Source: a virus. From it: a DNA stretch of 27,542 nt. Position 1 is the first letter of the stretch. Every line of letters begins with the position of its first letter. The stretch lies in the UHGV virus genome UHGV-0088497, one strand, 5' to 3'. Below the pieces are notes generated by a model that was given only the letters and a program-made list of their open reading frames with translations, did no database searches and was not told the origin of the DNA. Made by a program: the position numbers and the translations under genes. Below are positions 9,490 through 27,542 of the stretch, one piece after another.

Positions 9490-10437
9490 TTACTGGTTTT
9501 TTTTTGCAAGCTCATACTGTGCAAGGTAATTTGCATTATCAATTTTAGCAGATATCATCGCCGTCCTGATATCAGAATCAGAAGGATAGCCGCTTTTTAC
9601 TACTATAGTTTTCGAGCCTATGAGCACTTGATCAAGTAGGCTTTTTGGCGCTGTATCTGATGGTTCTGTTACATCAATTTTCTTGATGTTTAGCCCGCCA
9701 GAGCCTTTGGGGAATAGTTCAAGCAGTTCTTTAATAGCATCAGTAACTGATGATTTAAGATAGTTGAAGCCTGCTCTTTTGGGACGAATGCGACCGCGCA
9801 TGTTAAGTCTCAGGTGTGAACCGCCCATACCAACCACCATATCAATGATGTCATTAGTAAGGTCATTCTTAATCTGATAATTAGCTTTATTGAAATTTCT
9901 TGGCGCTGCGACAGTGAGGTCAAAACTGCGAAGGATGTTCCCATCTTCAAGAAGTTCCTTCATGCTCTCGTGCTTCCAGATAGCCTCGAATGTAACATTT
10001 TTCATTTGTGTCTTGTTGTACAGAATGAAAGATAAATCATTCACTTTGGGGCCTAAATGGTTGAGAGTCATTGCTAGTAAATCTGTTTCAAAGTAGTAAA
10101 TAAAATATGTCCGTTCTACTACTGAATCTTTATCGCTAAGCGGTATCGTTCGCTCGCTTCCTGTGGTGCCATCCTCGATAAAAGGTAAGAGACAATCACG
10201 CCTCCACGAGACATACCCAAAATAACTCTGCTGCTTATCATCCTTTTCAAGAATGACAAGTTTTAAACCGCGGTTTTGGGTTTCTGCTGTCACCACTAAA
10301 GGGAATGTAACCGGAGTCGTGTTTGTCATTTGCTCGAATGCAAGTTTCGCTGTAGACAGACCGTCTTTTTTACTTCCATTTCCAGTGAAAAAGCCAACTC
10401 TTACGCGACGAGTTTTCTTCTTATCTTCTGTAGTCAT
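9490..10437 (-). CDS. soluble 315-aa protein of unknown function, first gene of two-gene accessory cassette (RexA-like position)
   Basis: Long AT-rich ORF with no catalytic motif I recognise. ORF-track start at 10443 is TTG; ATG at 10437 is more likely. Confidence 0.65.
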   Translation of the reverse strand: MTTEDKKKTRRVRVGFFTGNGSKKDGLSTAKLAFEQMTNTTPVTFPLVVTAETQNRGLKLVILEKDDKQQSYFGYVSWRRDCLLPFIEDGTTGSERTIPLSDKDSVVERTYFIYYFETDLLAMTLNHLGPKVNDLSFILYNKTQMKNVTFEAIWKHESMKELLEDGNILRSFDLTVAAPRNFNKANYQIKNDLTNDIIDMVVGMGGSHLRLNMRGRIRPKRAGFNYLKSSVTDAIKELLELFPKGSGGLNIKKIDVTEPSDTAPKSLLDQVLIGSKTIVVKSGYPSDSDIRTAMISAKIDNANYLAQYELAKKNQ

Positions 10438-18169: not shown

Positions 18170-19674
18170 GCCTTTTAGATGATGCGATTGGGGTCTTTTC
18201 GCCTGGCTGGAAAGCAGCCCGTCTGCAGGCGCGCGCGAAAATCAGGGCATATGAAGCCGTTACCCCGACCAGAACGCACAAAGGGCGCCGTGAAAATCGT
18301 TCAGCTGATCAGCTCAGCAAAATGGGGGCGGTATCACTGCGGGAGCAGGCCCGGTGGCTCGATAACAATCACGATCTGGTGATTGGGGTGTTCGATAAGC
18401 TGGAAGAGCGGGTGGTTGGGAAAGCCGGAATTATTGTTGAACCCCATCCCAAACTGATGAACGGTAAAATCGCCAAAAAGCTTGCAGATCAGATCCGTAA
18501 TAAATGGGCAGAATGGTCTGTCAGGCCTGATGTCACGAACCAGTTTACCCGCCCGATGCTTGAGCGCCTGATGTTGCGCACCTGGCTGAGGGATGGCGAA
18601 GTGTTTGCCCAGCTTGTCAGTGGAACCGGGAATGGTCTTACGCCAGCAGCCGGTATCCCCTTCTGGCTTGAAGCGCTTGAACCAGATTTTATTCCCATGA
18701 ACAGCGATGCTGCCAGCCAGCTTAATCAGGGGGTATTCGTCGACAACTGGGGCAGACCAAGGAAATATCAGGTTTATAAAAGCCTGCCCGTTTCAGGCCG
18801 TCAGCTTGATACCAAAGAAGTGGATGCGGAAAACATGCTGCATCTTAAATTTGTCCGCCGTCTGCACCAGACCCGGGGAGTATCGATGCTGTCCGGTGTA
18901 CTGATGCGTCTGAGTGCACTCAAAGAGTATGAAGATGCTGAGCTCACCGCCGCACGTATTGCTGCTGCGCTGGGTATGTACATCAAAAAGGGGGACGGGC
19001 AAAGCTTAGAGGAGGGTAACAGTTCTTCCGATGATGATGATCGGGAATTGATGATTCAGCCTGGCATCATTTATGACGATCTGAAACCTGGTGAAGATAT
19101 CGGCATGGTGAAATCTGACCGGCCCAATCCTAACCTTGAAACCTTCCGAAATGGGCAACTTCGCGCTGTTGCAGCAGGTAGCCGACTCAGCTTTTCAAGC
19201 ACAGCCAGAAACTACAACGGCACCTACAGCGCGCAGCGGCAGGAACTGGTGGAATCAACAGATGGCTATCTCATTTTACAGGACTGGTTTATTGGCGCGG
19301 TGACCCGGCCAATGTACCGCGCCTGGCTGAAAATGGCGGTGGCCGCTGGCGAGATTAAATTACCCCGCGGTCTGGATATGGAGTCGCTGTACTCGGCGGT
19401 GTATTCCGGCCCTGTTATGCCGTGGATCGATCCGGTTAAAGAGGCCAATGCCTGGAAGTTACAGATCCGGGGCGGAGCGGCAACGGAATCCGACTGGGTC
19501 CGCGCCAGCGGACGTAACCCGAACGATGTGAAGGCGCGCCGGAAGGCAGAGATCGACGAAAACAAAGAGATGGGGCTGGTGTTTGACACTGACCCTGCCA
19601 ATGACAAAGGAGGCACAAGTGCCGAAGCCAAAGAACCGGGCGCACCACCGTCCGAAAGCCAGCGCAAAAAGTAA
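18166..19674 (+). CDS. portal protein (lambda gpB-like)
   Basis: 502-aa ORF right after gpW with ATGA overlap; size and position typical of lambda-type portals. Confidence 0.85.
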   Translation: MSLLDDAIGVFSPGWKAARLQARAKIRAYEAVTPTRTHKGRRENRSADQLSKMGAVSLREQARWLDNNHDLVIGVFDKLEERVVGKAGIIVEPHPKLMNGKIAKKLADQIRNKWAEWSVRPDVTNQFTRPMLERLMLRTWLRDGEVFAQLVSGTGNGLTPAAGIPFWLEALEPDFIPMNSDAASQLNQGVFVDNWGRPRKYQVYKSLPVSGRQLDTKEVDAENMLHLKFVRRLHQTRGVSMLSGVLMRLSALKEYEDAELTAARIAAALGMYIKKGDGQSLEEGNSSSDDDDRELMIQPGIIYDDLKPGEDIGMVKSDRPNPNLETFRNGQLRAVAAGSRLSFSSTARNYNGTYSAQRQELVESTDGYLILQDWFIGAVTRPMYRAWLKMAVAAGEIKLPRGLDMESLYSAVYSGPVMPWIDPVKEANAWKLQIRGGAATESDWVRASGRNPNDVKARRKAEIDENKEMGLVFDTDPANDKGGTSAEAKEPGAPPSESQRKK

Positions 19675-21643
19675 TTCCTGGTTCCGTATGCAGGCCAGCG
19701 CCGACAACGAAGCGGATATTTATATCTACGACGAGATCGGCTACTGGGGGGTGACGGCGCGCCAGTTTGTAAATGACCTGAAGGCGCTGGGCGATATTAC
19801 CCATATCAACCTTCATATCAATTCGCCCGGTGGCGATGTCTTTGATGGCATCGCCATTTTTAATGCCCTGAAGCATCACGGCGCGGCAATCACCGTTCAC
19901 ATTGATGGTCTGGCAGCTTCAATGGCTTCGGTGATTGCGATGGTTGGCAACCCGGTAATTATGCCGGAAAACACGATGATGATGATCCACAAACCATGGG
20001 GATTCGCAGGTGGCGATGCCAACGACATGCGGGATTATGCCGATCTGCTGGATAAGGTCGAGTCTGTCCTGATCCCGGCGTACGCGGAGAAAACAGGAAA
20101 AACGACCGATGAAATCGCCGCCATGCTGGACGATGAAACCTGGATGGATGGTAAAGAATGCTTAGCGCATGGCTTTGCCGATCAGGTCACTACATCTCTG
20201 CAGGCGATGGCCTGTATTCAATCAAAACGTATTGAGGACTTTGAAAAGATGCCAAACAGCATTCGTAACATGATCACCCCGCCGCGCAATACTACCCAGC
20301 GCGAACCGCAGCAACCGCAACCACAGGTGGCGGCAACGACGACCCCAGCGCCAGCGTCCACTTCTGATGAAGCCACTATCCGTGCACAGGTGCTTGCCGA
20401 GCAAAAGAACCGTGTTAACGCAATTAACGATCTCTTTGCGATGTTCGGTGGCAAGCATCATGAGCTGCAGAATAAATGCATCGCGGATCCGGAATGCACA
20501 GTGGCTCAGGCTAAAGATGAATTGCTGGCGGCGCTGGGCAAAAATGCCACACCGTCGAATAAAACTACGGATGCGCACATTTACGCCGGGAACGGTAACT
20601 TTGTTGGCGACGGAGTTCGTCAGGCACTGATGGCGCGCGCTGGCTTCGAGAGCCTGGAGCGGGACAACGTCTATAACGGCATGACGCTGCGCGAATATGC
20701 CCGTATGGCACTGACCGAACGCGGCATCGGCGTTTCCAGCTATAACCCGATGCAAATGGTCGGTATGGCACTGACGCACAGCACGTCTGACTTCGGTAAT
20801 ATCCTGCTCGACGTTGCTAATAAAGCGTTACTGCAGGGCTGGGAGGAAGCGGCAGAAACTTTTGAGCAGTGGACCAAGAAAGGCCAGTTGTCTGACTTTA
20901 AAACGGCGCATCGTGTCGGTCTGGGCGGCTTCTCATCCCTGCGTCAGGTACGCGAAGGTGCTGAATATAAGTATGTGACCACCAAAGATAAAGGTGAAAG
21001 CATCGCGCTGGCCACCTACGGTGAAATCTTCTCTATTACCCGTCAGGCGATCATCAATGACGATCTGAATCAGTTAACCGATGTACCTATGAAGATGGGC
21101 CGTGCAGCAAAAGGGACGATTGGCGACCTGGTGTATGCCATTCTGACCGAAAACGCGAAATTGTCTGATGGTAAGCCGCTGTTCCATGCTGATCACGGTA
21201 ATATTTCCGCAGGCGCGATTTCTGTAGCCAGCCTTGATGAAGCGCGCAAGATGATGCGTCTGCAGAAAGAGGGTGAGCGTCCCCTGAATATTCGCCCGGC
21301 ATTCATGCTGGTGCCAGTCGCGCTCGAAACCCTGGCAAACCAGACGATCAAGTCTGCCAGTGTGAAAGGGGCGGATATCAACGCCGGTATCATGAACCCA
21401 ATTCAGAACTTTGCTGATGTTATCGCGGAGCCGCGTCTTGACGCCAAAGACACCAGCGCCTGGTATCTGGCCGCCGCTAAGGGCACGGACACCATCGAAG
21501 TGGCATACCTGAACGGCGTTGATACTCCGTATATCGATCAGCAAGAAGGCTTCACTACCGACGGTATTGCCACCAAAGTGCGCATCGATGCCGGTGTATC
21601 ACCTCTGGATTATCGCGGCATGGCGAAATCAACCGGGAAATAA
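19619..21643 (+). CDS. prohead protease (S49/ClpP-like) - scaffold - major capsid protein fusion (Gifsy-type)
   Basis: N-terminal ClpP/S49-like domain (IYIYDEIGYWG, INSPGGDVFDG), Pro/Gln-rich linker, C-terminal ~350 aa capsid-like. GTG 19619 has a strong SD (AAGGAGG 19607-19613); alternatives are TTG 19583 and ATG 19688. Confidence 0.8.
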   Translation: MPKPKNRAHHRPKASAKSNSWFRMQASADNEADIYIYDEIGYWGVTARQFVNDLKALGDITHINLHINSPGGDVFDGIAIFNALKHHGAAITVHIDGLAASMASVIAMVGNPVIMPENTMMMIHKPWGFAGGDANDMRDYADLLDKVESVLIPAYAEKTGKTTDEIAAMLDDETWMDGKECLAHGFADQVTTSLQAMACIQSKRIEDFEKMPNSIRNMITPPRNTTQREPQQPQPQVAATTTPAPASTSDEATIRAQVLAEQKNRVNAINDLFAMFGGKHHELQNKCIADPECTVAQAKDELLAALGKNATPSNKTTDAHIYAGNGNFVGDGVRQALMARAGFESLERDNVYNGMTLREYARMALTERGIGVSSYNPMQMVGMALTHSTSDFGNILLDVANKALLQGWEEAAETFEQWTKKGQLSDFKTAHRVGLGGFSSLRQVREGAEYKYVTTKDKGESIALATYGEIFSITRQAIINDDLNQLTDVPMKMGRAAKGTIGDLVYAILTENAKLSDGKPLFHADHGNISAGAISVASLDEARKMMRLQKEGERPLNIRPAFMLVPVALETLANQTIKSASVKGADINAGIMNPIQNFADVIAEPRLDAKDTSAWYLAAAKGTDTIEVAYLNGVDTPYIDQQEGFTTDGIATKVRIDAGVSPLDYRGMAKSTGK

Positions 21644-22337: not shown

Positions 22338-22916
22338 ATGTCGGTTAAAGGCCTGGAAAGGGCTATTCAGAATCTTAACAGCCTCAGCCGGTTAATCGTT
22401 CCTGAGGCAACTGCGAAAGCACTTAACCGTGTGGCCAGCAGAACGATAAGTCAGGGCAGCAAAACTGTAGCGAAAGAGGCAAAGGTGGATGATAACCGGA
22501 AAACGGGGCTTCCGGTTCGTCTGGTCCGGCAGCGTTCCCGTTTACGCAAGGCCCGCCACGATCGTCCGGTCGCATCGATAAAAATCAACCGCGGTAATCT
22601 CCCCGCGATAAAGCTCGGCACGGCGCGCGTCCGGCTGTCGCGTAAAAAAGGGGCCAGAAACGGATCGGGCAGTGTCCTTAAAATCGGACCCTATACCTTT
22701 CGCAATGCGTTTATTCAACAACTGGCGAACGGGCGCTGGCAGGTCATGCGGCGCGTAGGTCAGGCCCGTTATCCGATTGATGTGGTCAAAGTTCCTCTTG
22801 AGACACCGCTCACCGTGGCATTCACCTCTATTTCCAAGCGCCTTATTGAAAGCGATATGCCCAAAGAACTTTCCGCAGCTCTGAAAAACCAACTGAGGAT
22901 CCACCTGAAGCGATGA
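22338..22916 (+). CDS. tail completion protein (prophage minor tail protein Z-like)
   Basis: 192-aa basic protein upstream of gpU, with GGAGGGGGG upstream; family call from memory. Confidence 0.6.
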   Translation: MSVKGLERAIQNLNSLSRLIVPEATAKALNRVASRTISQGSKTVAKEAKVDDNRKTGLPVRLVRQRSRLRKARHDRPVASIKINRGNLPAIKLGTARVRLSRKKGARNGSGSVLKIGPYTFRNAFIQQLANGRWQVMRRVGQARYPIDVVKVPLETPLTVAFTSISKRLIESDMPKELSAALKNQLRIHLKR

Positions 22917-23323: not shown

Positions 23324-24067
23324 ATGCCTACACCCAATCCACTGGCACCCGTGAAAGGCGCCGGTACCACACTCTGGCTTTACACAGGAACGGGTAACGC
23401 TTTCGCTAACCCACTCTCGGATATCGACTGGAACCGTCTGGCGAAAATTAAAGAGCTGACGCCGGGCGAAATGACCGCCGAATCGTATGACGACACCTAC
23501 CTTGATGATGAGGACGCCGACTGGAGCGCGACCGCTCAGGGTGCAAAATCGGCAGGGGATACATCACTTACGCTTGCCTGGAAGCCGGGAGAACAGGGAC
23601 AGAAAGAACTGGTCACCTGGTTTAACGATGGTTCTGTCCGGGTGTACAAGATTAAATATCCGAATGGTACCGTCGACGTTTTCCGCGGCTGGTGCAGCAG
23701 TCTGGGTAAAGCTATCCCGGCAAAAGAGGTCATTACCCGCACAGCGAAAATCACCAATACCGGCAAGCCCGAACTGGCTGAAGAAAGTGGTTCTGCGTCC
23801 ATTGCTGTTACAGGCGTTACGCTGGATAAATCCACGGCAAGCGTCGCCGTTGCAGCGACCATCGCGCTCAATGTGACGGTTAATCCTGCCAGTGCATCGG
23901 ATCCTTCTTTCCGCGTGGCAACCTCTGATGGGGCAAAAGCGACGGTATCTGTAAGCGGCAACACGATCACCGTAACGGGTGTAGCAGCCGGTAACGCTGA
24001 CATTATTGTTATGACCAGCGACGGCAATTTCGTTGCAGTCAGCAAAGTCACTGTCACCGCTTCCTGA
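23324..24067 (+). CDS. major tail protein (lambda gpV-like) with C-terminal Ig-like domain
   Basis: Strong resemblance to lambda gpV as recalled: [71 protein letters not shown]. Confidence 0.9.
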
Positions 24068-24077
24068 GGAGGGGGAT

Positions 24078-24509
24078 ATGTTCCTCAAAAAAGAACCATT
24101 TAACTACCTTGGCGAATCCACCACGCTGAATGAACTGTCAGCGCTTCAGCGTATTGAGTACCTTGAATTTCTGGCTGCGGAAGAAAAGACACTTGGTCAT
24201 GAAAGCGACAGCATCAGCGATCAGGAAATGACTGCCCGTCTGGTGGGTTCAAACATCCGCTGCGGTGCGCGCGTGATCGCACTTTCTCTCTGGCATAATG
24301 ACCCCGCAGGTCCCGACGAAGAAGCGCTTTACCAGCAGGTTCTCAAAGGCTGGCCGCCGGAAGCGATCGGCAAGGCTGAAATGCAGGTTAAGTTGCTCTC
24401 CGGCATGCTCGTTCCGGTTGATGATGACAACACTGACGATCCAGGTGCCCCATCAGAGGCCGAAGGCGCAGAAGCTGTTACGGCGGAAAAGCCCTTGCCA
24501 GCGAGCTGA
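24078..24509 (+). CDS. tail assembly chaperone (lambda gpG-like)
   Basis: Starts MFLKKEPF (lambda gpG MFLKTESF) with LSALQRIE and SLWHN matches; GGAGGGGG upstream of ATG 24078. The track ORF start at 24033 overlaps the gpV end. Confidence 0.85.
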   Translation: MFLKKEPFNYLGESTTLNELSALQRIEYLEFLAAEEKTLGHESDSISDQEMTARLVGSNIRCGARVIALSLWHNDPAGPDEEALYQQVLKGWPPEAIGKAEMQVKLLSGMLVPVDDDNTDDPGAPSEAEGAEAVTAEKPLPAS

Positions 24510-24832
24510 AATTTGTCCTGAATCTGGCGCGCGAGTTCGGGCGACCCGACTGGCGCGCCATGCTGGCTGGAATGACTTCTGGTGAGCTGGGTGACTGGCA
24601 CCAGTTCTACCGGGAACATTATTTTCAGGACGCGCAGCTCGATGCGCATTTTTCCGGGCTGCTTTATTCCATCTCTTCTATTTTCTTCCGCGATCCGGAA
24701 CTTACCCCCGCACATTTCAGCCTGCTTTCTCCTTCCGGCAGCATCATCAGTGATGATGAACCGGATGATGACACGCTGATGGCCGCAGCTGAGGGGATCA
24801 CAGGAGGTATCCGATATGGCCCAGCAGATTAG
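24078..24832 (+). CDS. gpG-T fusion chaperone via programmed -1 ribosomal frameshift (putative slip site GGAAAAG at 24485-24491)
   Basis: The -1 frame after the end of G encodes a gpT-like sequence (KFVLNLAREFGRPDWRAMLAGM...; lambda T: VLNLARELGRPDWRAMLAGM as recalled) with no start codon of its own until 24560. Confidence 0.6.
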
Positions 24833-27176
24833 CGATCTGGTCATCAACCTTGATGTCGACAGCGCCACGTTCAGCGAGCAGGTTGCCCGCATAAAGGGCC
24901 AACTCACAGGGATGGCTGATGATTCTGAAAAAGTCCAGACGCGAATGCAGCGCGCCTCAGAGCGACAGGTTGCAGCATTAAAAAGTGTGGGGGATGCAGG
25001 AGCTTCTGCAGCGGCGGAAATCAAATCCCGCCAGGCAGACGCCACGGAAGGGTTGGCTCAAAACTGGCAAAAAGTATCTAAATCCGTTGATGAAACACAC
25101 CGCCGGGTGACAGACCTCAGCCAGCGCATGCGTGAGAATGACGGCCAGGCGGCAGTGCTCGCAAGGCGGCAGGATGAACTTGCTGCATCTTTTTTTCGCC
25201 AGATAGACAGTGTTCGCCAGTTGAACGGAGAAACACAATCTCTCGCTAATGTGCAGGCACGCTTTCGTGCCGCAAGGGCTCAGGGAAATATTACCCAGCA
25301 GGATTACCTTGCGTTGATCTCTCATACGACAGCCCGACAGAAAGAGCTTCAGATTGTCGAAGAGAAAGCAGGGATTGCACGGGCGCGTTTTCTCCGTCAA
25401 CTGAAGTCTCAGGTTGTGGAGCAAAAGCTCTCCGGTACCGAACTGCTGCGAATGAAGGCTGCACAGGTTGGAGCCAGTGATGCCGCAGAAGTTTATATCC
25501 GTAAGCTTGAAGCGGCTAAAGTCGCCACGCACGGGCTGGGTCTGCAAAGTGCTGCGGCGCGTCGGGAACTTGGCGTTCTGATGGGCGAAGTCATGCGCGG
25601 TAACTTTGGTGCCCTTCGTGGTTCCGGTATTACGCTGGCCAACCGCGCCGGATGGATAGATCAGCTGATGACTTTACGCGGGCTGGGCATGGCCGGCATG
25701 GTCGGGGGGGTTGCTGCGGCGGTTGTTGGGTTGGGTAAAGCCTGGTATGACGGCAGCAAAGAGTCTGAGGAATTTAATAAACAGCTAATCCTGACCGGGA
25801 ACTACGCGGGTAAAACATCCGGTCAGCTTCAGGCGCTGGCGCGCTCGCTGGCCGGTAATGGTATCACTCAGCATGCCGCTGCAGGCGTGCTGGCGCAGGT
25901 CGTTGGAAGCGGCGCGTTCAGCGGTAATGACGTCAGCATGGTCAGCAATGTCGCCGCCAGGCTGCAGCAGGCTACCGGGCAGGCCGTCGACGAAACCATA
26001 AATCAGTTTAAACGCCTGAAGGATGATCCGGTTAACGCGGTCGCGACGCTCAATGATTCCCTGCATTTTCTGACGGCCACCCAGTATGAACAGATTTCCT
26101 CTGCTCAGGCGCTGGGGGATTCGCAGAAAGCAGCCGAGCTGGCAATGCGGGCATATTCTGACGCCGTTATACAACGAGCGGGGGCTGTAGAGGACAATCT
26201 TGGTTCTCTCGAAAAAGCGTGGAACTGGGTGAAGAATGCTGCTTCCGGGGCGTGGGATGCGATGCTGGGCGTAGGGCGTAATCCTGACACCGCGATGAAG
26301 CGCCAGGACTCTTTCGCTGAATGGCAGGCAGCAGAGAAAGAGTACCGCGCGCTGTCCAGCAATCTTAAAGTCGACCCAGATTATGCCGGTAACAACGTTC
26401 TGCAGAAAGCTGATGCGGAAAGGCTGAGAAACGCGCGCCAGCAGGTGGAGCTTAAAAAGCAGGCTTATGATCTGGCTGATCAGCAATATGCCCAGGAAGG
26501 ACTGACAGCCGCGCGGGAAAAAATGCGGACGGATCAGCAAACTCAGGCAATCCGCAGCCAGCAGCAGTTTAACCAGTTGGTGGAATCCGGCGCGACGGCG
26601 GCAGAAAAGCGGGCTTCAGCAGAGAAAAAGCTCAGTCAGCTTATTGAGAAAAACCGTCAGGATGCGAAAGACGGTATCGCCACGCTGTGGACTGACAAGG
26701 ACATTGCTGCAGCGCGGGCAGGGATCGAAAAGCAGTTTAAGGACGCCAAAACCCCAAAAGGCAAAAGCTATTCAACGCCAGCCGGGGACAAAGCTGAAGA
26801 AAAAGCACAGGCCGAACTTCTCACCCTTCAGGCCCAGCTTAAAACGCTTGAGCAGCATACCAGCGTGAACGATGTTATCAGCAAACAGCGTCAGGACCTC
26901 TGGCAGACTGAAAATCAGTTCACAGTTCTTCAGGAGGCCGCTGGTCGTCGTCAGCTTACGGCGCAGGAAAAATCCCTGCTGTTCCAGGTCGAGCAGGCCG
27001 AAGCCTCCAAGCGGGAACTCGTGGCCGGAGGGCTCAAGGTTTCCCAGCTCGAAGACGAAGAACAGTGGAAAAAAGTCGCCATTGAAAAGGTGTGGCCTGA
27101 AATGGCGGACTTCGTGGGCGGCAAGGATGCCATCAACGAATATCTGAAGGCTTGCGGCAAGCAGCCCTGGAACTAA
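24816..27176 (+). CDS. tail tape measure protein (lambda gpH-like)
   Basis: 786-aa Ala/Gln-rich, largely helical ORF directly after G/T; GGAGG upstream of ATG 24816. Confidence 0.85.
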   Translation: MAQQISDLVINLDVDSATFSEQVARIKGQLTGMADDSEKVQTRMQRASERQVAALKSVGDAGASAAAEIKSRQADATEGLAQNWQKVSKSVDETHRRVTDLSQRMRENDGQAAVLARRQDELAASFFRQIDSVRQLNGETQSLANVQARFRAARAQGNITQQDYLALISHTTARQKELQIVEEKAGIARARFLRQLKSQVVEQKLSGTELLRMKAAQVGASDAAEVYIRKLEAAKVATHGLGLQSAAARRELGVLMGEVMRGNFGALRGSGITLANRAGWIDQLMTLRGLGMAGMVGGVAAAVVGLGKAWYDGSKESEEFNKQLILTGNYAGKTSGQLQALARSLAGNGITQHAAAGVLAQVVGSGAFSGNDVSMVSNVAARLQQATGQAVDETINQFKRLKDDPVNAVATLNDSLHFLTATQYEQISSAQALGDSQKAAELAMRAYSDAVIQRAGAVEDNLGSLEKAWNWVKNAASGAWDAMLGVGRNPDTAMKRQDSFAEWQAAEKEYRALSSNLKVDPDYAGNNVLQKADAERLRNARQQVELKKQAYDLADQQYAQEGLTAAREKMRTDQQTQAIRSQQQFNQLVESGATAAEKRASAEKKLSQLIEKNRQDAKDGIATLWTDKDIAAARAGIEKQFKDAKTPKGKSYSTPAGDKAEEKAQAELLTLQAQLKTLEQHTSVNDVISKQRQDLWQTENQFTVLQEAAGRRQLTAQEKSLLFQVEQAEASKRELVAGGLKVSQLEDEEQWKKVAIEKVWPEMADFVGGKDAINEYLKACGKQPWN

Positions 27177-27191
27177 ACGACATCCCTCCAC

Positions 27192-27227
27192 AAAAAAGCC
27201 CGGACGGTTTTTGTCCGGGCTTTTTTT
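27192..27227. terminator. bidirectional Rho-independent terminator (A6-GCCCGGAC-loop-GTCCGGGC-T7)
   Basis: Perfect 8-bp GC-rich stem (27198-27205 / 27213-27220) flanked by an upstream A-run and a downstream T-run, between convergent H and the minus-strand gene. Confidence 0.8.
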
Positions 27228-27269
27228 GCGGGAAGAGGGAAAACGCCGTTGCCCGTCTGCGGAAAGGCG

Positions 27270-27542
27270 TCAGGCCCGGCCCTGCTTCCAGCACCATACC
27301 TTTCCGAGTGCCATCGCGGGAATCATGGACAAGGCAGGGATAAGCGAAACCAGCGAACCCGCGAGGATAAACAGGACGCCCACCACCATGCTCACCGGAA
27401 TGGCTTCCTGCAGAAAAACCAAGGCCAGCACGGGCGCGAGGGCGGGCTTGAAGAAGAAGACCAATGAGGCGGTGATCGGAGAGGTCGCCTCCATCGCCAT
27501 AAAGTAGCAGGCAAAGCCCGCCCCGGTCACGCCGACGCAGAT
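27270..27542 (-). CDS. partial CDS (C-terminal part; continues beyond window end): polytopic membrane protein, EamA/DMT-transporter-like
   Basis: Hydrophobic helices (VGVLFILAGSLVSLIPA, ALAPVLALVFLQEAIP) typical of DMT-family transporters; the ORF runs off the window, so the N-terminus is missing. Confidence 0.45.
   Translation of the reverse strand: MCVGVTGAGFACYFMAMEATSPITASLVFFFKPALAPVLALVFLQEAIPVSMVVGVLFILAGSLVSLIPALSMIPAMALGKVWCWKQGRA

What the first reader, a model, noticed from the sequence alone, without database searches (positions are those of the whole stretch)
24485..24491. G-T tail chaperone frameshift appears to use a non-canonical slippery heptamer GGAAAAG
The gpT-like coding sequence continues in the -1 frame from the end of gpG with no start of its own, so a programmed -1 frameshift is required. 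The only A-rich candidate near the junction is G GAA AAG, not the lambda-type G GGA AAG; P-site re-pairing would be imperfect, which implies a different or less efficient slip mechanism.
Basis: partly seen in the sequence, partly recalled or inferred. Interest (0 to 1): 0.4.

Follow-up and report, generated by a model that had tools for sequence, protein, structure and literature searches.

The report
Known GGAAAAG slip site in tail chaperone
This is the ordinary programmed -1 frameshift site of a phi80/N15-type prophage tail-assembly chaperone gene pair: its heptamer G_GAA_AAG differs by one base from the lambda site, is already annotated in those phages, and was the commonest variant in my samples of this gene family.

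Summary
GGAAAAG lies at 24485-24491, phased G_GAA_AAG in the gpG ORF (24078-24509). It sits inside the only 73-nt stretch (24437-24509) where the -1 (T) frame is open before G stops. It is the only N_NNA_AAR site in that stretch.

It aligns base for base with lambda's G_GGA_AAG. The same heptamer at the same spot is annotated as the "-1 slippery sequence" in phages N15, phi80 and LLS.

Among 77 distinct related contexts, 70 carry GGAAAAG. In some relatives the shift-permissive overlap shrinks to 16-25 nt and still contains the heptamer.

The -1 frame shows third-codon-position variation from the heptamer onward. It has no start codon before 24560.

The most likely mechanism is tandem slippage of tRNA-Glu and tRNA-Lys, with a central G·U pair in the P site. 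A published reconstituted E. coli system found G_GAA_AAG less slippery than G_GGA_AAG. No nearby conserved stimulator was found.

The prophage here is cut off inside the tape-measure gene. Verdict: real, ordinary and already known.

The parts
23324..24067 (+). Major tail tube protein gene (gpV-like, with a C-terminal Ig-like domain), immediately upstream of G
   Evidence: Pfam Phage_TTP_12 2.9e-68 plus Big_2 3.2e-15. Same gene order as phi80 gp13/V.
24078..24509 (+). gpG tail assembly chaperone ORF (0 frame, 143 aa), preceded by the SD-like GAGGAGGGGG
   Evidence: Pfam PF06894 Phage_TAC_2 1.6e-26. Sequence read. 86.5% nucleotide identity to the phi80 G-T region.
24437..24509 (+). Shift-permissive overlap: the -1 frame is open (after TGA 24434-24436) and the 0 frame has not yet stopped
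   Evidence: In relatives the equivalent overlap is as short as 16 nt (L025) or 22-25 nt (L026, L015, L016, L019, mEp460, Kp4865-4) and always contains the heptamer.
24485..24491 (+). Slippery heptamer G_GAA_AAG (P-site codon GAA, A-site codon AAG; -1 codons GGA and AAA)
   Evidence: Homologous to lambda G_GGA_AAG. The identical heptamer is annotated as the slippery sequence in N15, phi80 and LLS. Found in 70 of 77 distinct contexts and 51 of 88 in a heptamer-agnostic scan.
24491..24832 (+). T segment read in the -1 frame (113 codons plus stop). The G-T fusion is join(24078..24491, 24491..24832), 251 aa
   Evidence: Pfam PF06223 Phage_tail_T 3e-13. Fusion translation. 58.9% amino-acid identity to lambda T. 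Entropy by -1-frame codon position is 0.54/0.34/1.06 between the heptamer and the first ATG.
24525..24560 (+). G+C-rich hairpin within the T coding sequence, starting 33 nt after the heptamer; a role in frameshifting is doubtful
   Evidence: MFE fold z = -3.2. 87.5% of cells paired across 25 representatives, but only 2 pairs with changes on both sides. It overlaps the conserved peptide LAREFGRPDWRAM.
24816..27176 (+). Tape-measure gene (gpH-like). Its start overlaps the T end. It is homologous to phi80 H only up to about 27047
   Evidence: Pfam TMP_2 3.1e-48. blastp aligns aa 1-744 to phi80 H aa 1-744 at 89.7%, after which similarity ends.

Best explanation
This is the programmed -1 ribosomal frameshift site of a phi80/N15-type (lambda-family) tail assembly chaperone pair. 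Most ribosomes read gpG to its stop at 24507. A minority slip back one base with tRNA-Glu on GAA in the P site and tRNA-Lys on AAG in the A site. tRNA-Lys (the single mnm5s2UUU species in enterobacteria) re-pairs perfectly with AAA. tRNA-Glu (anticodon 5'-UUC-3') re-pairs with GGA through G-C, a central G·U and A-U. Translation then continues at GCC (24491) in the -1 frame and produces a 251-aa G-T fusion. As in lambda, the G part of that fusion would bind the tape-measure protein and the T part would recruit the tail tube protein. Shown here: the ORF geometry, the homology of the site to the lambda site, nucleotide-level conservation of all seven bases, and purifying selection on the -1 frame from the heptamer onward. 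Inferred: that both tRNAs slip together, that efficiency is low (probably below lambda's few percent), and that no dedicated RNA stimulator is used.
For: G and T carry the Pfam families Phage_TAC_2 and Phage_tail_T and lie between the tail tube and tape-measure genes. The site aligns codon for codon with lambda GCG_GGA_AAG and with A_AAA_AAG in the 1720a-02 and Stx1 phages. The identical heptamer is annotated as the slippery sequence in N15, phi80 and LLS, all isolated phages deposited as such. GGAAAAG is kept in relatives down to 38% T identity (Providencia, Klebsiella, Sodalis, Kosakonia) while the flanks are scrambled. The intersection of the overlap windows narrows the shift to about 16 nt around the heptamer. 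Base 1 is G whatever the preceding codon is (GCG, CTG, TTG, CCG, GTG, ATG), and it is A where the P-site codon is AAA. This points to selection on P-site re-pairing rather than on the protein. Third-position-dominated variation in the -1 frame starts directly at the heptamer. Literature: A_AAG is the most shift-prone tetramer in E. coli and X_XXA_AAG heptamers are the best (PMC4066793). Single G·U mismatches in the -1 frame are tolerated thermodynamically (PMC6787027). tRNA-Glu re-pairing to GGA via G:U was proposed for phage chaperone motifs, and a 'twofour' motif class is recognised (PMC10885494).
Against: No G-T fusion peptide or reporter measurement for this heptamer in a phage context was found in the searchable literature. 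[quoted passage not shown] Three of 88 contexts have A at base 1 (A_GAA_AAG in two, A_GGA_AAG in one) with intact ORFs, so base 1 is not indispensable. No conserved stimulatory structure lies at the usual 5-9 nt spacing. In this window the prophage is truncated, so the site may no longer serve any purpose in this host.
Confidence: 0.85

Rival explanations
1. The shift occurs at the same place but by single-tRNA slippage: only tRNA-Lys moves from AAG to AAA (the hexanucleotide NNA_AAG or tetranucleotide A_AAG type). tRNA-Glu does not genuinely re-pair, so GGAAAAG is not a true heptamer signal.
For: A_AAG alone is the most shift-prone tetramer in E. coli. Natural sites A_CGA_AAG (Bacillus cdd) and G_CGA_AAG (IS1222) work this way (PMC5009743). 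[quoted passage not shown] Rare A_GAA_AAG variants have intact G and T ORFs.
Against: Base 1 equals base 2 in 74 of 77 and 85 of 88 distinct contexts, across six different preceding codons encoding five amino acids. It switches to A exactly where the P-site codon is AAA. The P-site codon is restricted to GAA, GGA or AAA although the surrounding G tail is otherwise highly variable. Both patterns are expected only if P-site re-pairing is under selection.
Confidence: 0.2
2. T is made on its own by initiation at the ATG at 24560, as several GenBank and RefSeq records annotate it, and no frameshift is used.
For: JX871397, mEp213 and PGAP records annotate T from the equivalent internal ATG.
Against: No Shine-Dalgarno sequence precedes 24560. 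The ATG lies inside the conserved T peptide LAREFGRPDWRAMLAGM. The 23 codons upstream of it are conserved in the -1 frame with third-position variation, down to Providencia. PGAP itself flags that CDS as incomplete. From memory, not re-read here: lambda G-T is an experimentally proven fusion (Levin, Hendrix & Casjens 1993).
Confidence: 0.03
3. The heptamer is a decayed lambda-type GGGAAAG in a dead prophage, that is, a mutation rather than a functional variant.
For: The prophage in the window is truncated within the tape-measure gene and abuts a host EamA transporter gene.
Against: The same heptamer occurs in isolated phages deposited as such (phi80, N15, LLS, mEp213, mEp043, HK225, mEp237, mEp460) and in 70 of 77 distinct related contexts. 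The G and T ORFs are intact here.
Confidence: 0.02
4. RNA polymerase slippage on the A run adds or removes a base in some transcripts, which would put T in frame.
For: None specific. The site contains a homopolymeric run.
Against: The run is only four A's. Documented bacterial transcriptional realignment sites have runs of more than 7 A's or more than 8 T's (PMC3711429). Conservation of the flanking GG and the terminal G is not explained by this model.
Confidence: 0.01

Closest known systems
Phage N15 gp14/gp15 and phage phi80 gp14/G-T (also phage LLS genes 11/12): annotated -1 slippery sequence GGAAAAG
   Same: Identical heptamer, identical phase, homologous position. Same gene order V-G-T-H. 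86.5-87.2% nucleotide identity to phi80 and LLS across G-T. Fusion length 251 aa as in the phi80 G-T annotation.
   Different: Nothing at the site itself. Here the element sits in a Citrobacter-type prophage (99-100% to Citrobacter murliniae CP163158) whose tape-measure gene is truncated. The head genes are not phi80-like: whole-window blastn similarity to phi80 starts only at 22698.
Phage lambda G / G-T programmed -1 frameshift at G_GGA_AAG (Levin, Hendrix & Casjens 1993; Xu, Hendrix & Duda 2004, 2013, 2014, as cited in PMC5009743)
   Same: Same protein families (PF06894 and PF06223). T is 58.9% identical. The slip codon pair aligns exactly. The 0-frame stop lies five codons after the site. 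No stimulator at the usual spacing was found.
   Different: One base differs (GGA to GAA in the P-site codon). The post-slip P-site pairing therefore has its G·U at the central position (tRNA-Glu on GGA) instead of the wobble position (tRNA-Gly on GGG). The 0-frame dipeptide is E-K instead of G-K. In vitro the lambda-type heptamer is much more slippery.
Hexanucleotide/tetranucleotide NNA_AAG shift sites (Bacillus subtilis cdd A_CGA_AAG; IS1222 G_CGA_AAG; Licznar et al. 2003)
   Same: A-site tRNA-Lys slips from AAG to AAA. The P-site codon ends in A and cannot re-pair perfectly.
   Different: Here base 1 is conserved so that two of the three P-site positions stay Watson-Crick and the third is G·U. 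That makes it intermediate between a hexamer and a true X_XXY_YYZ heptamer.
E. coli dnaX A_AAA_AAG frameshift
   Same: Same A-site event and the same dependence on the single tRNA-Lys. A_AAA_AAG itself is used at the homologous position by some relatives (1720a-02 and Stx1 phages).
   Different: dnaX has an upstream SD-like element and a downstream stem-loop at short spacing and shifts at about 50%. No such conserved elements were found here.

Membership tests
Lambda-type G / G-T tail assembly chaperone with programmed -1 frameshift | Two overlapping ORFs located between the major tail tube gene and the tape-measure gene | tested here: met
   V 23324-24067, G 24078-24509, T frame to 24832, H from 24816.
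Lambda-type G / G-T tail assembly chaperone with programmed -1 frameshift | Upstream ORF belongs to the gpG family and the downstream segment to the gpT family | tested here: met
   PF06894 at 1.6e-26 and PF06223 at 3e-13, both above the curated cut-offs. T is 58.9% identical to lambda T.
Lambda-type G / G-T tail assembly chaperone with programmed -1 frameshift | Downstream ORF is in the -1 frame, lacks its own start and SD, and is under selection in that frame from the overlap onward | tested here: met
   No ATG/GTG/TTG between 24437 and 24560. Codon-position entropy 0.54/0.34/1.06 in the -1 frame.
Lambda-type G / G-T tail assembly chaperone with programmed -1 frameshift | Canonical X_XXY_YYZ slippery heptamer in the overlap | tested here: not met
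   The heptamer is G_GAA_AAG, so XXX is G-G-A. It is a near-cognate variant at the homologous position. This strict motif is not a requirement for membership in the gene family, because N15 and phi80 share the variant.
Lambda-type G / G-T tail assembly chaperone with programmed -1 frameshift | A G-T fusion protein is actually made at a low ratio to G | not testable with these tools
   Needs protein analysis or a reporter assay. No published measurement for this heptamer in a phage was found.
N15/phi80-type GGAAAAG slip site | GGAAAAG phased G_GAA_AAG, five codons or fewer before the G stop, followed in the -1 frame by the conserved T start (...LAREFGRPDWR) | tested here: met
   Ungapped alignment with phi80, LLS, N15, HK225, mEp237, mEp460 and Kp4865-4.
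dnaX/IS-type stimulated -1 frameshift cassette | Conserved upstream SD-like element and/or a downstream hairpin or pseudoknot 5-9 nt from the heptamer | tested here: not met
   Upstream flanks have near-maximal entropy. The RNAalifold consensus is -5.6 kcal/mol with a covariation term of -0.14 and places no helix near the heptamer. The only strong hairpin starts 33 nt downstream.

The most novel reading that the evidence does not exclude
A heptamer that biochemists use as a poorly slipping control (G_GAA_AAG, PMC6924986) was the commonest natural slip site in my samples of the lambda-type G-T family, and it is conserved to the base. Two readings follow. Either these phages run on a much lower G-T:G ratio than lambda, or an unrecognised stimulator raises the efficiency in vivo. 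Candidates are the conserved hairpin about 33 nt downstream, the nascent acidic G tail, or the 3' codon or stop context. Either answer would make this family a natural test bed for second-position G·U tolerance in P-site re-pairing.
Probability: 0.15. Interest if true: 0.45.

Novelty: already known. Interest (0 to 1): 0.15.

Why it matters
For annotation, T should be joined to G at 24491 (join 24078..24491, 24491..24832). It should not be called from the internal ATG or flagged as a pseudogene, as several database records still do for relatives. For biology there is little new. The site is the standard N15/phi80 form of the lambda G-T frameshift, and in this locus the prophage is truncated. 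One modest open point remains: no efficiency measurement for this very common heptamer in its phage context was found, and the one in vitro study that used the sequence found it poorly slippery.

Tried and rejected
1. Other slip sites in the overlap: T_GCC_CCA (24446) and C_TGA_AAT (24506) are the only other in-phase triplet runs. Neither is conserved, and the first lies where the -1 frame is closed in most relatives.

2. Downstream stimulator: RNAalifold on 25 representatives gave no helix near the heptamer. The window's strong hairpin at 24525-24560 is largely kept across relatives (87.5% of cells paired). However, it has only 2 pairs with changes on both sides. It is built from palindromic GCGCGC strings that encode Ala-Arg and Arg-Ala in a conserved peptide, and it starts 33 nt from the site. 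A ribosome-queuing role was also considered and rejected by reasoning: 0-frame ribosomes terminate at 24507, before they reach the hairpin.

3. Upstream SD-like element: none is conserved.

4. Literature searches for GGAAAAG or G_GAA_AAG together with phage terms returned only unrelated papers. Xu et al. 2004 and Licznar et al. 2003 are not held in the library, so what I recall of them is unverified.

5. My first pattern scan used a wrong spacing and matched nothing. It was corrected.

6. tRNA genes in the window: none.

Full report
**The observation**

The bases at 24485-24491 are GGAAAAG. The upstream ORF starts at ATG 24078, behind a GAGGAGGGGG Shine-Dalgarno-like stretch, and stops at TGA 24507-24509 (143 aa). 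Its codons begin at positions divisible by three, so the heptamer is phased G_GAA_AAG within ACG GCG GAA AAG CCC.

The -1 frame is closed by a TGA at 24434-24436 and then stays open to 24830-24832. A -1 shift that joins the two ORFs must therefore happen within 24437-24509. The only in-phase N_NNA_AAR site in that stretch is the one reported. The two other in-phase triplet runs, T_GCC_CCA at 24446 and C_TGA_AAT at 24506, are not conserved, and the second contains the stop codon.

The -1 frame has no ATG, GTG or TTG before the ATG at 24560, and nothing resembling a ribosome-binding site precedes that ATG. The heptamer as a word is not unusual: it occurs six times in the window against 4.85 +/- 2.16 expected. 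Only its place, phase and conservation carry weight.

**What the genes are**

- The 0-frame ORF is a lambda gpG-family tail assembly chaperone (PF06894, 1.6e-26).
- The -1 segment is gpT (PF06223, 3e-13).
- The gene before them is a lambda-type tail tube protein with an Ig-like domain.
- The gene after them is a tape-measure protein.
- Z, U, a lambda-family portal and a gpA-type terminase lie upstream.
- The left half of the window carries a cI-like S24 repressor, replication genes, methylases, an antirepressor and a lysozyme.

The window is therefore a lambdoid prophage. The nearest genome is Citrobacter murliniae CP163158, at 99-100%. The nearest named phages are LLS, phi80, mEp213 and mEp043, at 84-87% nucleotide identity over G-T. 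The T segment is 58.9% identical to lambda T.

**The site is already annotated**

Three database records mark a feature that reads GGAAAAG at the aligned position:
- GenBank FN582354 (phi80) marks 10194-10200 as "slippery sequence for -1 translational frameshift" and gives a joined G-T CDS.
- PQ299149 (phage LLS) marks "minus-one programmed translational frameshift site GGAAAAG".
- RefSeq NC_001901 (N15) marks 10027-10033 with the same words as phi80.

I read the sequence under each feature. Other records call T from the internal ATG (JX871397, mEp213) or as an incomplete pseudogene (PGAP on E. coli Nissle). These calls are an annotation artefact of not modelling the frameshift.

**Comparative evidence**

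I collected 21 genome loci and 80 viral contigs encoding relatives of the fusion protein. I added annotated phage loci, including lambda, HK225, mEp237, mEp460, 1720a-02, Stx phages, Kp4865-4 and N15.

Anchoring on the T frame, the in-phase heptamer at the homologous spot is GGAAAAG in 105 of the first 107 sequences, which are the window plus 106 related loci. It is GGAAAAG in 70 of 77 distinct 197-nt contexts. The rest are GGGAAAG (3, lambda type), AAAAAAG (2) and GGGAAAA (2). In an ungapped comparison the window's GCG GAA AAG lies exactly on lambda's GCG GGA AAG and on TCA AAA AAG of the 1720a-02 and Stx1 phages.

The heptamer persists in relatives whose T is only 38-55% identical (Providencia, Klebsiella spallanzanii, Sodalis, Kosakonia). 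There the preceding G tail is unalignable. In a set of 25 representatives below 85% identity, per-column entropy is near zero over the seven bases and near maximal just upstream.

The overlap in which a shift is possible shrinks to 16 nt in Providencia heimbachae and to 22-25 nt in several other relatives, and it always contains the heptamer. In three Providencia loci the 0-frame stop follows the heptamer directly. From the heptamer to the first ATG of the T frame, variation is concentrated at third positions of the -1 frame (entropy 0.54/0.34/1.06). That frame is therefore translated from the slip site onward.

**How common the variant is**

I scanned IMG/VR with a pattern that fixes only RRRAAAR plus conserved T-coding bases at the correct spacing. 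The 88 distinct contexts were GGAAAAG 51, GGGAAAG 31, AAAAAAG 3, AGAAAAG 2 and AGGAAAG 1.

Still, it shows that GGAAAAG is at least as common as the textbook lambda heptamer in this family.

**Mechanism**

By standard pairing rules, tRNA-Lys moves from AAG to AAA with a better wobble pair. tRNA-Glu (5'-UUC-3') moves from GAA to GGA and keeps G-C and A-U, but gains a central G·U.

Two patterns indicate that this P-site re-pairing is under selection:
- Base 1 is G after six different preceding codons (GCG, CTG, TTG, CCG, GTG, ATG), and it is A where the P-site codon is AAA.
- The P-site codon is confined to GAA, GGA or AAA in an otherwise free-varying tail.

Three contexts with GCA (A at base 1) and intact ORFs show the requirement is not absolute.

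The published work fits this picture:
- A_AAG is the most shift-prone tetramer in E. coli, and X_XXA_AAG heptamers are the best (Sharma et al. 2014).
- E. coli has a single tRNA-Lys, and NNA_AAG sites such as A_CGA_AAG and G_CGA_AAG are used naturally (Atkins et al. 2016).
- Single G·U mismatches in the -1 frame cost only a few kJ/mol (Bock et al. 2019).
- PRFect describes a "twofour" motif class and tRNA-Glu re-pairing on GGA through G:U.

Most directly, Peng et al. 2019 used AUG GAA AAG, which is this same heptamer, as their less slippery mRNA. No in vivo or phage-context measurement was found.

**Stimulators**

No conserved upstream SD-like element exists. A consensus fold of 25 representatives has no helix near the site (-5.6 kcal/mol, covariation term -0.14).

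The window folds into a strong hairpin at 24525-24560 (z = -3.2), and it is largely maintained across relatives (87.5% of cells paired). Three points argue against a stimulatory role:
- It begins 33 nt after the heptamer.
- It has only two pairs with double changes.
- It is made of palindromic GCGCGC strings that encode Ala-Arg and Arg-Ala in the conserved LAREFGRPDWRAM peptide.

I regard a stimulatory role as unlikely but untested.

**Status of this locus**

The tape-measure ORF matches phi80 H over residues 1-744 (89.7%) and then diverges at about 27047. It stops at 27176. A bidirectional terminator-like hairpin follows at 27198-27220, and then the 3' end of an EamA-family transporter gene on the other strand. 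No M, L, K, I or J genes follow within the window.

The prophage is therefore truncated on this side. The G-T site is intact, but it probably no longer contributes to tail assembly here. Experiments are better done on phi80 or N15.

**Verdict**

The finding is real and correctly read, but it is ordinary. It is the N15/phi80 form of the lambda G-T frameshift, already annotated in public records, and it was the commonest form of the site in my samples. The only open point is quantitative: how efficiently this near-cognate heptamer shifts in vivo, and whether anything assists it.

Noticed in passing
window 24816-27542: The tape-measure gene matches phi80 H only over aa 1-744 (to about 27047). It then has 42 unrelated codons and a stop at 27176. 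A terminator-like hairpin (27198-27220) and the 3' end of an EamA-family transporter gene on the minus strand (27270-27530) follow. The prophage appears truncated inside H, with no distal tail genes in the window.
   Followed up: partly
window 24525-24560: A strong G+C-rich hairpin lies inside the T coding sequence, 33 nt after the slip site. It is largely maintained in 25 diverse relatives including lambda (87.5% of cells paired). However, it is built from palindromic Ala-Arg / Arg-Ala codons, so it may be a by-product of the conserved peptide.
   Followed up: partly
L096 1908-1914 and L026 (Providencia rustigianii) 1875-1881: Two unrelated members carry G_GGA_AAA in place of G_GAA_AAG. Each differs by two substitutions from its neighbours, which suggests independent switches between alternative heptamers.
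   Followed up: partly
L193 482-488, L231 (minus strand) about 3334, L194 2130-2136: Rare variants carry a synonymous GCA before the site, giving A_GAA_AAG (two cases) and A_GGA_AAG (one case), with intact G and T reading frames. Base 1 of the heptamer is therefore preferred but not indispensable.
   Followed up: partly
window 19583-21643: A single 686-aa ORF combines a ClpP-type protease domain (aa 30-204) with a major capsid domain (aa 376-683). It is a fused prohead protease-capsid gene, unlike the separate phi80 and lambda genes. Whole-window blastn similarity to phi80 starts only at 22698.
   Followed up: no
L005 (E. coli Nissle 1917, NZ_CP058217) 1929-2192; L003 (JX871397) 1929-2201: Database records call T from the internal ATG, and PGAP flags it as an incomplete pseudogene, instead of joining it to G. 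This is a systematic annotation artefact for the family.
   Followed up: partly
L008 (DAINBV010000046.1): A 44.6-kb contig binned as a 'Geobacteraceae bacterium' MAG carries a G-T locus 94% identical to this enterobacterial prophage. It is probably a mis-binned or contaminating phage contig.
   Followed up: no
hit H56, MW057783.1: A record named 'Campylobacter phage CJLB-4' (48,361 bp) carries lambda-like G and T genes at lambda-like coordinates, with the same identity to the query as lambda itself. It looks like a lambda-type genome under a Campylobacter label.
   Followed up: no
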